From Eledone cirrhosa (taxonomy: Eukaryota), in NCBI GenBank assembly GCA_964016885.1, contig CAXHJY010000958.1:1-15105 (forward strand): a stretch of 15,105 bases of DNA. The letters run 5' to 3'. The notes beneath the pieces are model-generated. The model worked only from the letters and a program-made list of their open reading frames with translations. It was not told where the DNA came from and searched no databases. Both the position numbers and the translations under genes were made by a program. Every line of letters begins with the position of its first letter. Within the stretch, counting starts at the first letter, position 1. Below, one piece after another: positions 738 to 15,105 of this stretch.

Positions 738-2420
<1,683 letters not shown>

Positions 2421-5882: not shown

Positions 5883-5974
5883 TATTCTATACAAATGTGT
5901 ATATATATATACACATATATATGATATTCTCTCTCTATCTATATATCTGCGTTGATATATATATATATATATAT

Positions 5975-6096
5975 ATAGGAAAATGTATTACCCCGACGGC
6001 AGAGCTCAAGCCGTTTCGACGGCTATTTCTGTCCAGAAATAGCCGTCAAAACGGCTTGAGCTCTGCCGTCGGGCTCATACATATACATTTTCCTAT
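5975..6096. repeat. Long near-perfect inverted repeat (foldback)
   Basis: 40-bp arms 5992-6031 and 6034-6073 (one mismatch, C6017/A6048; 2-nt spacer TC), plus perfect 14-bp outer arms ATAGGAAAATGTAT (5975-5988) / ATACATTTTCCTAT (6083-6096). Confidence 0.97.
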
Positions 6097-6171
6097 TACC
6101 CCTCTACTATCCTAAGTATTGAGTACTCTGCTGCGTTATGGTTCATCTGGTTCCTTACCACAACTCCTTCG

Positions 6172-6172
<1 letters not shown>
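5978..6172. mobile_element. ~195 bp insertion in a (TA)n tract; candidate inverted Penelope-like pLTR fragment or MITE
   Basis: GC-richer island bounded on both sides by pure TA runs (5955-5977, 6173-6225); contains the foldback and hammerhead half-motifs. Confidence 0.45.
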
Positions 6173-6227
<55 letters not shown>

Positions 6228-6706: not shown

Positions 6707-7098
6707 GTGACAATTATTGACACATAGTGCTGGGCCCATGGTACCATGTGACGACAAGTGCAGATATATCTCCAGATATAAAGCAATGCCTGTGCCGTGA
6801 AGCTTTTATAGTGAGCAAAGGCACTGCACAAAGCCAGTCCCACTCTCTTAACCAAGATGATATTTACCAAAAAGAAGAACAAGTCAACATCATTGGATAC
6901 CATCAGGGTTGCAGGTGTTATATCAGAGTTTTCCTTCTCCTAGAATTCTGCCTTGACAAAGGCTAAGGGATCATCTCACCCGGTGATTTTGGATGGCCAT
7001 TGACTCTTAAGAGCTCCTTTGCCCTTTGACAGGTTTTGTTTTTAGTCCTGCAGGATATCCAAAGTCACCCTCCTCACCAAGAATCCTTGGTGGGGTTG

Positions 7099-7176
7099 CC
7101 AGTTTAGTCGCCAACGACCCGACCATGAGACAGGTTGTACTGGGATACATGTTACCAGTAACACAAGCTGGTGACC
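7099..7176 (-). ncRNA. Possible decayed HDV-like ribozyme at the RTE 5' end
   Basis: Minus strand: P2 CCAGU (7139-7143)/ACUGG (7099-7103); L3-like ACCUGUCU with CC able to pair GG; P4 UCG-UUGG-CGA; J4/2 CUAA. P3 (ACA/CAU) and P1 are broken or weak. Confidence 0.3.
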
Positions 7177-7180
7177 TGAC

Positions 7181-8594
7181 ATAACATACATATATACATA
7201 CATACATATACACATATATATATACACATATATATACACATATATACATATATACATATATATACACATATATTACATACATATACACATACATACACAT
7301 ATATATACACACATATATATATTCACATATATATATACACATATATATATACACATATATATATACACATATATATATACACACATATATATATACACAT
7401 ATATATATACACACATATATATACACACATATATATACACACATATATATATACACATATATATATATACACATATATATATATATACACACATATATAT
7501 ATATACACACATATATATATATATACACATATATATATATACACACATATATATATACACACATGTATATATATACACACATATATATATATACACACAT
7601 ATATATATATACACACATATATATATATACACACATATATATATATACACACATATATATATATACACACATATATATATATACACACATATATATATAT
7701 ATATATACACACATATATATATATATATATACACATATATACACATATATACACATATATATATACACATATATATATACACATATATATATACACATAT
7801 ATATATACACATATATATATACACACATATATATACACACATATATATACACACATATATATATACACATATATATATATACACATATATATATATACAC
7901 ATACATATATGTACACATATATATATACACATATATATATACACATATATATATACACATATATATACACATATATATATATATACACACATATATATAT
8001 ACACATATACATATACATATATATATACATATACACATATATATACATATACACATATATATATATATACATATACACATATATATACATATACACATAT
8101 ATATATATACATATACACATATATATATATATACAAATACACATATATATATATATACATATACACATATATATATATATATACATATACACATATATAT
8201 ATATACATATACACATATATATATATATATACATATACACATATATATATATATATACATATACACATATATATATATACATATACACATATATATATAT
8301 ATATACATATACACATATATATATATATATACATATACACATATATATATATATATATACATATACACATATATATATATACATATACACACATATATAT
8401 ATATACATATACACATATATACATATACATATACACATATATACATATACATATACACATATATACATATACATATACACATATATACATATACACATAT
8501 ATACATATACATATATATACACACATATATACATATACATATACACATATATACATATACATATACACATATACATATATACATATGTATATAC

Positions 8595-8647
<53 letters not shown>
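7181..8647. repeat. Long compound (TA)n/(CA)n microsatellite
   Basis: About 1.45 kb of TA runs punctuated by CAC/CACAC and later CATATACAC units, ending in pure (TA)n. Confidence 0.97.
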
Positions 8648-8650
<3 letters not shown>

Positions 8651-8954
8651 CTGCATTATTAATAATGTTCAGTTTGAGGAAATTTTGTCTTTTCGTCTGC
8701 TGTCTTTTATTACACAAGGAAATCTGTAGTTGGCATCAAAAACATTATGTTAATAAGTAGGAGGGTATTCAGAAATAGCAAGTACCAGGAAATATGAACT
8801 TACAAAGCAAGTAAAATGCCAAAACATTTTTAGCTATCGAATTTATGTCGAATTGAATACAAAAAACAAAACAAACTATTGATTTCCTACAATAACGACA
8901 GCAAAATCTAAAAAAACTAAAGATAAAAAGCAAAAGAATAGAAGACAATAAAAG

Positions 8955-8955
<1 letters not shown>

Positions 8956-8999
<44 letters not shown>

Positions 9000-9104
9000 G
9001 TATGTGTATGTATGTACATATATATGTATGATTGCGTGTGCATATATATATATATATATATATATTATGTATGTGTATGTATGTACATATATATGTATGA
9101 TTGC

Positions 9105-9136
<32 letters not shown>

Positions 9137-9175
9137 TATGTATGTGTATGTATGTACATATATATGTATGATTGC

Positions 9176-9212
<37 letters not shown>

Positions 9213-9285
9213 GTATATGTATGTATGTACATATATATGTATATGTGTCTGTGTTTTTGTGACTGTGTATATGTATATATATATA
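8956..9285. repeat. ~70 bp minisatellite built on (TA)n
   Basis: GATTGCGTGTGC at 9030, 9099 and 9170 (periods 69 and 71), each preceded by ATGTATGTGTATGTATGTACATATATATGTAT; partial fourth copy at ~9211. Confidence 0.95.
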
Positions 9286-9431
9286 ATGGGTGGAATATTA
9301 TGTTTTCTGTGTGGTTACATAGAATAGAAAACAGCCAAAAAACAATGACGGCATCAGCTATAACACAAATATTGGCGTTAAAGGACAGCTATATATACGT
9401 GTTTACGGATGGATAGATATACCGATGTCTT

Positions 9432-9770
9432 TATATATATATATATATAAAGATATATATATAAAGATATATATATATATATATATATATAAAGATATAT
9501 ATATATATATATAAAAATATATATATATAAAGATATATAAAAATATATATATATAAAGATATATAAAAATATATATATATAAAGATATATAAAAATATAT
9601 ATATATAAAGATATATAAAAATATATATATATATATAAAGATATATAAAGATATATAAAAATATATATATATAAAGATATATAAAGATATATAAAAATAT
9701 ATATATATATAAAGATATATAAAGATATATAAACATATATATATATATAAAGATATATAAAAATATATAT

Positions 9771-9843
<73 letters not shown>

Positions 9844-9994
9844 AAGATATATATATATATATATATAAAGATATATATATATATATATATATATATAAAG
9901 ATATATATATATATATATATATATAAAGATATATATATATATATATATATATAAAGATATATATATATATGTATAAAGATATATATATATATAA

Positions 9995-10032
<38 letters not shown>

Positions 10033-10042
10033 ATATATATAA

Positions 10043-10086
<44 letters not shown>

Positions 10087-10114
10087 ATATATATATATAA
10101 TATGTGTGTGTGTG
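9432..10114. repeat. (TA)n microsatellite with AAAG/AAAAA interruptions
   Basis: Repeated TATAAAGATATA and TATAAAAATATA units. Confidence 0.96.
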
Positions 10115-10588: not shown

Positions 10589-10786
10589 AATAATAATAAT
10601 AATTGTTTATACTTTTGGCACAAGGTCAGCAATTACCCCCAGTGCATTACTGGTACTTTATTTTATCGACCCCGTAAGGATGAAAGGCAAAGTTAACCAT
10701 GGCGGGATTTGAATCAGAACGCAAAGGGCCATAACTCTATGCGTCAAAGCATGGCGTCCGAACCTCTGCCGATACTGCCAATCCCC
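10589..10786 (-). mobile_element. tRNA-derived SINE, copy 1
   Basis: Minus strand: A-box-like TGGCAGTATCGG (~10769-10780), B-box-like TTCAAATCC (10705-10713), central GCCTTTCATCCTTACGGGGTCGATAAAATAAAGTACCAG, and (ATT)n tail at 10589-10603. Confidence 0.88.
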
Positions 10787-10998
10787 ATAATAATGGCTTA
10801 TGATTTAGGCACAAGGACAACATTTTTGGCAGATGGGGAAATCGACCCCAGTGCATTACTGGTATTTTATGTTATCGATCCCGTAACGATGAACATCAAA
10901 GCTAACCTCGGCGGGATTTGAACTCAGAACATAAAAGGACGTAAATAAAACTCCCCAAAACATTTTTGTCTGGCATTCTGTTGATTCTGCCAGTCTCT
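10787..10998 (-). mobile_element. tRNA-derived SINE, copy 2 (tandem with copy 1)
   Basis: A-box-like TGGCAGAATC (10983-10992), B box GTTCAAATCC (10914-10923); shares CCCCAGTGCATTACTGGTA and GGCACAAGG with copy 1; short ATT tail at ~10787-10794. Confidence 0.88.
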
Positions 10999-11280: not shown

Positions 11281-11472
11281 TTGGTAAAGCGTCGCACAAC
11301 ATGCTTTGTGGCATAGAGTTGCGTCCCATAACGTTCTGAGTTCAAATCCCACCAAAGTTAGATTTGACTTTCATTCTTACAGAGATCGATAAAGTAAGAT
11401 ACCAGTAAAGAACTGCAGTCAATTTAATCGATTTTTTCCTCACCACCAAATTGCTGGTTAAAAGTGGAAACA
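11281..11472 (+). mobile_element. tRNA-derived SINE, copy 3 (opposite orientation)
   Basis: GAGTTCAAATCCC B box (11338-11350), CTTTCATTCTTACAGAGATCGATAAAGTAAGATACCAG core and AAATTGCTGG 3' part; GCATAGAGTT (11311-11320) is the reverse complement of AACTCTATGC in copy 1. Confidence 0.82.
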
Positions 11473-12607: not shown

Positions 12608-12871
12608 ATTTGTCATGACCAAACTACACAACGGCCATTTCTCGCAATCGACACTGACTTTGTAACATATTTTAACTGTCTGTTGTTATGGTACTAGACA
12701 GGATCTCCATCTCCACATACCAGTCAAATAGTTGGTTCGACCACATTTGTCATGATCAAACTACACAACGGCCATCTCTCGCAATCGACACTGACTTTGT
12801 AAGGTGTCTGTCTTTTGGGGACTAGACACGGTCTGTGCCTCCACGTACCAGTCAAATACTTGGGTCGACAC
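12608..12871. repeat. Diverged tandem duplication (137 bp + 127 bp)
   Basis: Units 12608-12744 and 12745-12871 both begin ATTTGTCATGAYCAAACTACACAACGGCCATYTCTCGCAATCGACACTGACTTTGTAA and end TACCAGTCAAATASTTGGKTCGAC. Confidence 0.95.
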
Positions 12872-13217: not shown

Positions 13218-13251
<34 letters not shown>

Positions 13252-13404
13252 ACATATATACACATATATATACACATATATATACATATATATACACATA
13301 TATATAACATATATATACATACATACACATATATACATATACATACACATATATACATATACATACACATATATACATATACATACACATATATACATAT
13401 ATAT

Positions 13405-13435
<31 letters not shown>

Positions 13436-14330
13436 AATATATATATATAAATATATATATATATAAATACATAATTTTGAAAAGGAAGTTGCATTATCAC
13501 AAGGTATGTCACTAATTATATATATAAATATATATATATATAAATATATATATATAAATATATATATATATAAATATATATAAAGATATATAAATATATA
13601 TAAAGATATATATATAAATATATATATATAAATATATATAAAGATATATAAATATATATAAAGATATATATATAAATATATATATATAAATATATATTAT
13701 TATTATTATTATATATAAATATATATATATAAATATATATTATTATTATTATTATATATAAATATATATATATATATAAATATAAATATATATTATTATT
13801 ATTATTATATATAAATATATATATATATATAAATATAAATATATGTAAATATATAAATAAATATAAATATATATAAATATATAAATAAATATATATAAAT
13901 ATATATATATAAATATATATATATAAATATATATATATAAATATATATATATAAATATATAAATATATATATATATAAATATATATATATATAAATATAT
14001 ATATATATAAATATATATATATATAAATATATATATATATAAATATATATATATATAAATATATATATATATAAATATATATATATAAATATATATAAAT
14101 ATATATATATAAATATATATATATAAATATATATAAATATATATATATAAATATATATATATAAATATATATATAAATATATATAAATATATATATATAT
14201 AAATATATATATAAATATATATATATATAAATATATATATAAATATATATATATATAAATATATATAAATATATATATATATAAATATATATAAATATAT
14301 ATATATAAATATAAATATATATAAATATAT

Positions 14331-14361
<31 letters not shown>

Positions 14362-14599
14362 AATATAAATATATATAAATATATATATATAAATATATAT
14401 AAATATATATAAATATATATATATAAATATATATAAATATATATAAATATATATATATAAATATATATAAATATATATATATAAATATATATAAATATAT
14501 ATAAATATATATATATAAATATATATAAATATATATAAATATATATAAATATATATATATAAATATATATAAATATATATATATAAATATATATATATA

Positions 14600-14633
<34 letters not shown>

Positions 14634-14907
14634 AATATATATATATAAATATATATATAAATATATATATATAAATATATATATATAAATATATATATAT
14701 ATAAATATATATAAATATATATATATAAATATATATATAAATATATATATATAAATATATATATATAAATATATATATATAAATATATATATATAAATAT
14801 ATATATATATAAATATATATAAATATATATATATAAAAATATATATATATAAATATATATATATATAAATATATATAAATATATATAAATATATATAAAT
14901 ATATATA

Positions 14908-14939
<32 letters not shown>

Positions 14940-15045
14940 AATATATATAAATATATATAAATATATATATATATAAATATATATATATAAATATATATAT
15001 ATAAATATATATATATAAATATATATATATAAATATATATATATA

Positions 15046-15077
<32 letters not shown>

Positions 15078-15105
15078 AATATATATATATAAATATATAT
15101 ATATA
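13211..15105. repeat. Very long (TA)n/TAAA microsatellite running off the window end
   Basis: CA-interrupted TA at 13211-13400, then TA runs punctuated by AAA; a short unique spacer at ~13470-13515; no G or C seen after 13845. Confidence 0.97.

What the first reader, a model, noticed from the sequence alone, without database searches (positions are those of the whole stretch)
5992..6073. Mirror-image 'half-hammerheads': each foldback arm encodes GAAA-stem III-GUC
Seen: the minus strand of the left arm reads GUC-GAAA-CGGC-uugagcucu-GCCG-UC-gggg, i.e. conserved GAAA (6017-6014), a 4-bp stem III plus A-U pair, a loop containing the palindrome GAGCUC, and a canonical GUC site (cut between 5995 and 5994). 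The right arm carries the same on + with GAAA>AAAA (6048-6070). The central palindrome occupies the stem II position, and the CUGANGA half is missing. Inference: two inverted pLTR copies were fused by template switching within a long stem II, replacing the catalytic strand. Transcripts could be substrates cleaved in trans by intact family members, as a split-ribozyme arrangement.
Basis: partly seen in the sequence, partly recalled or inferred. Interest (0 to 1): 0.72.

Follow-up and report, generated by a model that had tools for sequence, protein, structure and literature searches.

The report
Penelope stub missing its ribozyme's front
This palindrome is one of at least 19,000 short head-to-head stubs of a Penelope-like jumping gene, and each arm holds only the back half of a hammerhead (self-cutting RNA) motif, likely because the element's RNA starts in the middle of that motif and was copied twice from its front end.

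Summary
The two half-hammerheads are real and at the stated places. They are the arms of a 197-bp insertion (5976-6172) in (TA)n: two 5'-truncated ends of an abundant Hydra-clade Penelope-like retroelement (PLE), joined head to head, with an 80-nt tail on one side. Longer copies carry RT plus GIY-YIG and a complete type I hammerhead whose core is UUGANAA (U3-A8 swap, published for Schistosoma PLEs), not CUGANGA. The genome holds 66,833 exact 3' halves, 6,309 catalytic halves and 19,178 short junctions, nearly all different, so each stub formed separately. Arm ends pile up 12-22 nt before GAAA, inside loop II, often after a non-parental G (5,202 G against 863 A). That likely marks the capped start of the element's RNA, copied twice and end-joined. 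Read-through RNA of this stub is predicted to be a locked hairpin, so trans-cleavage of it is unlikely. No RNA data were available. The scan reached the same reading before on other DNA of this genome; I found it in none of the papers searched.

The parts
5956..5977 (.). (TA)n target tract, left
   Evidence: the 30 closest copies sit against TA-rich runs at both ends
5976..6031 (-). Untailed arm: PLE 3' end starting 14 nt upstream of GAAA; carries the stem II 3' strand, GAAA (6017-6014), stem III, GUC (5997-5995) and the stem I 3' strand
6031..6031 (.). Head-to-head junction with 1 nt of overlap (2 nt if the -15 A allele is allowed); the most frequent junction type among many
6031..6095 (+). 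Tailed arm: starts 17 nt upstream of the GAAA position, 1 nt inside the inferred RNA start; GAAA>AAAA at 6048, GUC at 6068-6070, private 6-nt duplication near 6078-6089
6096..6172 (+). 80-nt 'tail' on one arm only; in full-length copies it is part of the 5' UTR leading to the ORF, inferred to lie between two RT start sites
   Evidence: 134 of 143 junction loci have exactly one tail; L139:3110-3190 continues to the ATG; PMC11167929
6173..6225 (.). (TA)n target tract, right

Best explanation
The palindrome is a head-to-head pair of 5'-truncated ends of a Hydra-clade Penelope-like retroelement inserted in (TA)n, and it likely lacks the catalytic half because the element's RNA likely starts inside loop II of its own hammerhead. 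Shown: the parent element, its complete UUGANAA hammerhead motif, the copy numbers, the pile-up of arm ends and the excess of a non-parental G. Inferred steps: (1) An internal promoter in the pLTR starts a capped RNA about 18 nt (some about 22 nt) upstream of GAAA. (2) The element's protein nicks both strands of a TA run and starts reverse transcription at two internal sites 80 nt apart in the 5' UTR. (3) Both cDNAs run off the RNA's 5' end after about 58 and 138 nt, sometimes copying the cap as G. (4) The two ends are trimmed and joined by end-joining. The stub is predicted to be a dead end whose read-through RNA forms a long hairpin that does not cut.
For: Parent: L139 has pLTR-tail-718-aa ORF-pLTR with Hydra motifs. 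Hammerhead: the intact region folds as a three-way junction (z -2.4); position 7 varies while A8 is nearly fixed. Separate origins: 47 different junctions among 52 loci; the two arms of one insertion differ by 2.5 nt in 40, against 5.6 between loci. Template end: of 101 arms, 60 end at -12..-22, 18 at -1..-11, 4 at -24..-56 and 19 keep the core; tailed and untailed arms have the same median, 15. DNA contig depth steps about 15-fold at that place (run X1). Cap sign: G before AGTMCAG 5,202 times against A 863 times. G stands at that position in 1 of 79 intact copies, and 24 of 30 G-arms belong to four subfamilies whose 59 intact copies all have T. The partner arm does not supply the G in about half of the 30 (16 by script, a few of them mis-parsed). 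Among 68 copies that run on into the 5' UTR, 8 begin at -12..-22 and 1 at -23..-59 (read by eye). End-joining: 24 of 54 junctions have 0-1 nt overlap, 14 have filler and 16 have 2 nt or more; the tailed arm is longer in 24, the untailed in 22, equal in 7. Precedents: internal RT starts bounding the tail and extension of both strands (PMC11167929); an internal pLTR promoter (PMC2377424); an extra G from the cap in L1 (PMC11702581).
Against: No RNA was examined, so the start site and cap are inferred from DNA. The edge is not sharp: many arms reach -21..-23. In 9 of 30 G-arms the partner arm can supply the G. One subfamily with no intact copy sampled (3 of 30) may have G as its parental base. 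Among 100 rows where both arms pass -18, my hand count is T 68, G 14, C 11, A 7, only 2:1 for G over A. Samples come from the first part of one contig. Hammerhead pairs show no covariation above shuffles (334 of 500 as high), and about a fifth to a quarter of the first 100 cores listed have an unpaired C3/A8.
Confidence: 0.72

Rival explanations
1. Same PLE origin, but the RT stalls on full-length RNA at stem II or at the small loop II hairpin and then switches template or strand. This is.
For: A weak hairpin is predicted in loop II with its 3' side at about -16..-22; ends also cluster at -12.
Against: The RT would already have passed the stronger stems I, III and II. A stall does not explain a non-parental G at one position. 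Long arms mostly pair with long arms and short with short.
Confidence: 0.13
2. Snap-back: one cDNA folds on itself at its 3' end and primes its own second strand, and the endonuclease resolves the hairpin, leaving the tail on one side.
For: It explains the near-identity of the arms within a locus; 16 of 54 junctions have 2 nt or more of overlap; PMC8557442 ascribes the tail to endonuclease resolution.
Against: 38 of 54 junctions have 0-1 nt overlap or filler, and neither arm is consistently longer (24:22). Some loci have G on both arms around a filler (L265, L269).
Confidence: 0.09
3. The palindrome is a self-propagating non-autonomous element (MITE- or retrozyme-like) whose arms serve as substrates cleaved in trans by intact family members.
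For: The window's junction type recurs among the closest copies, which were selected for likeness. An isolated arm plus a catalytic half cofolds into a hammerhead, ddG -15.4 kcal/mol.
Against: 47 of 52 unselected junctions are distinct; there are no terminal inverted repeats at the true ends; the whole palindrome folds at -98 and -109 kcal/mol and the catalytic half does not pair with the arms; the right arm has lost G12.
Confidence: 0.04

Closest known systems
Hydra clade of C-terminal EN+ Penelope-like elements (Craig et al. 2021, PMC8557442; includes Hydra-1_Obim)
   Same: Single ORF with RT and C-terminal GIY-YIG; DKT, CxCX5C, CxxC and CxH motifs; (TA)n targets; hammerhead near the 3' end; inverted 5'-truncated copy plus one-sided tail (noted for Penelope-13_HM in the supplement).
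   Different: A different family from Hydra-1_Obim (different protein and hammerhead, compared by eye). The unit is 3.1-3.5 kb and the tail 80 nt rather than 30-40. The core is YUGANAA, whereas every hammerhead in that paper's File S2 table has CTGANGA. Most copies are stubs cut inside the ribozyme.
U3-A8 minimal hammerheads of Schistosoma mansoni Cercyon PLEs (Cervera and de la Pena 2014, PMC4209133)
   Same: U3-A8 in place of C3-G8, long stem II, G10.1-C11.1 pair, type I topology in a pLTR.
   Different: Here stem III is a 4-5 bp stem with a 7-9 nt loop, so dimers are not obviously needed; U3/G8 and C3/A8 subfamilies also occur.
Poseidon_Ac (PAc) in vitro mechanism (Frangieh et al. 2024, PMC11167929)
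   Same: Two internal RT start sites bounding the tail, AT-rich target, extension of both strands.
   Different: Different clade; that paper reports no run-off at an RNA start inside the ribozyme and found no reads ending at the cut site.
Drosophila virilis Penelope internal promoter (Schostak et al. 2008, PMC2377424)
   Same: TATA-less promoter inside the pLTR.
   Different: There the start lies 46 bp before an intron whose 3' end abuts helix I (PMC4209133), so the transcript holds the whole ribozyme; here the inferred start is inside loop II.

Membership tests
Hydra-clade PLE (parent element) | Single ORF, RT followed by C-terminal GIY-YIG | tested here: met
   L139:3283-5436, 718 aa, YRDDG then VIYQ...AYIG. 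Pfam is weak: GIY-YIG E=0.069 on L091 and nothing on the full ORF. 2,216 homologues at E<=1e-20 among 7,998 scored.
Hydra-clade PLE (parent element) | DKT and RWK motifs | tested here: met
   SDKTG present; RWR in place of RWK
Hydra-clade PLE (parent element) | CxCX5C linker, CxxC and CxH around E and N, no CCHH | tested here: met
   CNCPDRSIC; CNLC..EE..LN..CKH; one Cys between the GIY and YIG parts
Hydra-clade PLE (parent element) | Insertion into (TA)n | tested here: met
Hydra-clade PLE (parent element) | Canonical CUGANGA hammerhead, reported as universal in the clade | tested here: not met
   Core is YUGANAA; G8 in 57 of 6,309. A descriptive trait of the families then known; the variant keeps the 3-8 pair in most copies.
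Hydra-clade PLE (parent element) | Placement in the RT phylogeny | not tested
   The reference proteins lie only in the paper's supplement; compared by eye
EN+ PLE complex insertion (window copy) | Inverted 5'-truncated copy adjoining the forward copy, tail on one end | tested here: met
   134 of 143 loci have one tail; same layout at kilobase scale
Type I hammerhead ribozyme (window copy) | Both core strands and three helices | tested here: not met
   No first core strand; the arms pair with each other
Type I hammerhead ribozyme (intact family copies) | Core residues, three helices, NUH site | tested here: met
   90% of cells paired against 29-53% when slid; U3-A8 in 16, U3/G8 in 6 and unpaired in 4 of 26 (the G8 rows were picked on purpose)
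Type I hammerhead ribozyme (intact family copies) | Covariation of helices | tested here: inconclusive
   Not above shuffles; copies too alike
Type I hammerhead ribozyme (intact family copies) | Self-cleavage | not testable with these tools
   Indirect only: segments beginning at or within 2 nt of the cut site in L252, L388, L393 and L418; no clear spike among 100 short partners
MITE or retrozyme | One fixed unit copied as a whole (terminal inverted repeats, or tandem units with whole ribozymes) | tested here: not met
   47 distinct junctions of 52; asymmetric ends

The most novel reading that the evidence does not exclude
The element uses a split hammerhead on purpose. Its capped mRNA starts inside the ribozyme, so the 5' end carries only the substrate half and is safe from cis-cleavage. 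The catalytic strand in the 3' UTR of the same or another transcript can pair with that half and cut off the cap, producing the RNAs that begin at the cut site, run into the ORF and are recorded in some copies. That would be a natural trans-acting hammerhead switch in a retroelement.
Probability: 0.12. Interest if true: 0.72.

Novelty: new variant of a known kind. Interest (0 to 1): 0.36.

Why it matters
PLE insertion is poorly understood, and the origin of the inverted copy and the role of the ribozyme are open questions. If the reading holds, tens of thousands of stubs record where the element's RNA starts and where RT begins. They support a model of two cDNAs plus end-joining, and they show a promoter placed so that the mRNA's 5' end cannot self-cleave. 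Natural U3-A8, U3/G8 and C3/A8 subfamilies allow a direct test of whether cleavage matters. The window's copy itself is ordinary decayed debris, and the scan has recorded the same reading in this genome before.

Tried and rejected
A search for canonical CTGANGA 6-36 nt before GAAA gave 50 matches. In the 30 loci read these were flank, filler or rearranged sequence, and none was the family's own core. C3 with G8 in the proper place occurs in only about a dozen of the 57 G8 cores. Neptune was my first guess for the clade (note); I dropped it after reading the EN alignments and the Hydra section. A 3' splice site at TTTAG|TCCAG was rejected because the sequence upstream of the G varies from locus to locus. 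My early tally that partner arms ending at -18 are followed by G in 5 of 5 loci shrank to 2 of 2 once a subfamily with possibly parental G was set aside. Bins at extent 25-26 were matching artefacts, fixed. Rfam found no hammerhead. Expression: no RNA holder listed. The covariation test was uninformative. A genome-wide count of arms starting at the cut site was not made; the local sample shows only a modest excess at -3..0. Literature searches showed no paper describing PLE stubs that end at an RNA start inside the hammerhead. Subscription journals are mostly not covered, and supplements other than that of PMC8557442 were not read.

Full report
Observation. The motifs are as described. The foldback spans 5976-6095, is followed by an unpaired 80-nt stretch to 6172, and sits between (TA)n runs. 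It folds far better than shuffles. The window is otherwise microsatellite-rich and shows no PLE-like ORF.

It is a repeat. The 201-nt query has 4,208 candidate places in the 3.0-Gb genome, of which 40 were scored. The 30 closest copies share both ends and TA-rich flanks. Exact patterns give 66,833 3' halves and 19,178 short head-to-head junctions.

Parent. Copies that extend further upstream lead to foldbacks of kilobase arms (L091) and to a pLTR-ORF-pLTR copy with an intact 718-aa ORF (L139). The protein has RT followed by GIY-YIG, with RWR, DKT, CxCX5C, CxxC and CxH. These match the Hydra clade as defined in PMC8557442 (seen: passages, section 11, supplement searches and part 2). It is not Hydra-1_Obim (compared by eye). 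No tree was built. The 'tail' is part of the 5' UTR: in L139 it continues to the ATG, 231 nt after the inferred start.

Ribozyme. Intact copies read ACCCC-UUGANAA-G...stem II...C-GAAA-CGGC/GCCG-UC^GGGGU and fold as a three-way junction. There are 6,309 first halves. Position 7 takes all four bases, position 8 is G in only 57, and about a fifth to a quarter of the first 100 listed have C3 with A8. The U3-A8 swap is published for Schistosoma PLEs (PMC4209133, parts 1-2 of 4 read). All hammerheads in the Hydra table of PMC8557442 have CTGANGA. Covariation is not above shuffles because the copies are too alike. Activity is untested. Four loci contain segments that begin at or within 2 nt of the predicted cut (L252, with both arms and one filler base; L388, L393, L418). 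This hints at cleavage, but 100 short partner arms showed no clear spike there.

How the stub forms. Junctions are nearly all different (47 of 52), the two arms of one insertion are closer to each other than to other loci, and 134 of 143 loci have exactly one tail. Untailed arms mostly end 40 nt and tailed arms 120 nt after GAAA. So each stub is a separate insertion with two fixed 3' starts, as shown in vitro for Poseidon_Ac (PMC11167929, parts 1-2 of 4 read). The 5' ends are set by the template, not by length: of 101 arms, 60 end at -12..-22, 18 nearer, 4 at -24..-56 and 19 keep the core, with the same median for tailed and untailed arms. Contig depth from a DNA run steps about 15-fold at the same place (this run may be the assembly's own sample). 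Position -18 is the A of TYAGTM and -22 the A of TCATTT, both resembling the initiator TCAKTY (consensus recalled, not from a call). A G that the parent lacks precedes -18 in 5,202 arms, against 863 for A. Intact copies have G there in 1 of 79. An extra G marks cap copying in L1 (PMC11702581, passages), and Penelope has an internal pLTR promoter (PMC2377424, passages). Copies that run on into the 5' UTR also begin in this window: of 68, 8 start at -12..-22, 1 at -23..-59, about 33 have the whole upstream pLTR, and the rest start further downstream or are unrelated (by eye). Junction overlap is mostly 0-1 nt or filler, and neither arm is favoured, which fits end-joining of two cDNAs better than snap-back.

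Against this reading: there are no RNA data; the edge is soft, with many arms to -21..-23; 9 of 30 Gs can come from the partner and 3 of 30 may be parental; G over A is only 14:7 in the subset (hand count); and samples come from the start of one contig.

Trans-cleavage. An isolated left arm cofolds with a catalytic half from L091 into a hammerhead, but the right arm (AAAA) does not. In the full palindrome the arms stay paired with each other. The natural half-hammerhead RNA would instead be the 5' end of the element's own mRNA. The novel case rests on that RNA, and DNA cannot separate trans-cleavage there from cis-cleavage in tandem read-through transcripts.

Known or new. The inverted copy with a tail, the Hydra clade and U3-A8 are published. 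An RNA start inside the ribozyme with run-off stubs did not appear in my searches. Also seen: bioRxiv 10.64898/2026.07.22.740005, part 1 of 5, and PMC13282606, passages; neither describes it in what I read. I noted the idea; earlier scan reports on the same genome, seen, give the same reading and are not independent evidence. The host looks like an octopod from its repeats and from those notes; this was not tested.

Verdict. A real feature, ordinary as a locus and informative as a family: PLE origin about 0.97, RNA-start run-off about 0.72, purposeful split ribozyme about 0.12. Interest 0.36.

Noticed in passing
L180, L291, L296, L304, L311, L317 (junction of the arms): Runs of extra T (up to about 20) just upstream of AGTCC on the sense strand, as if the RT stutters on the UUU at the template's end; reminiscent of repeat addition by telomerase-like enzymes.
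   Followed up: no
L118, L338, L343, L348 against L066, L112, L143, L148: Subfamilies carry U3/G8, U3-A8 or C3/A8 at the core pair, a possible stepwise walk from C3-G8. The mismatched C3/A8 form is about a fifth to a quarter of the first 100 cores and is mirrored in both arms of single insertions.
   Followed up: partly
L388, L393, L418: Composite insertions in which a segment starting at or within 2 nt of the ribozyme cut site is joined to the 5' UTR or ORF start of another segment, suggesting template jumps on cleaved or circular RNA.
   Followed up: partly
L368-L371 and G000:C1:437200356-437210963: Head-to-tail arrays of four units with a period of about 3.53-3.54 kb, longer than the 3,118-nt unit of L139.
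   Followed up: no
window 6162-6174: The tail ends in TTCGTTAT; the same letters follow the hammerhead in a coral Hydra element printed in the supplement of PMC8557442, a possible shared RT start signal.
   Followed up: no
window 10600-10990 and 11300-11470: Two tandem pieces and one opposite-strand piece of what looks like a SINE (judged by eye).
   Followed up: no
window 12610-12870: A direct repeat of roughly 140 bp in two copies (seen by eye).
   Followed up: no
window 6935-7185: A repeat fragment whose right end also appears next to a family insertion in L190.
   Followed up: no
window 738-2418, 7186-10103, 13218-15105: Very long degenerate (TA)/(TACA) tracts.
   Followed up: no
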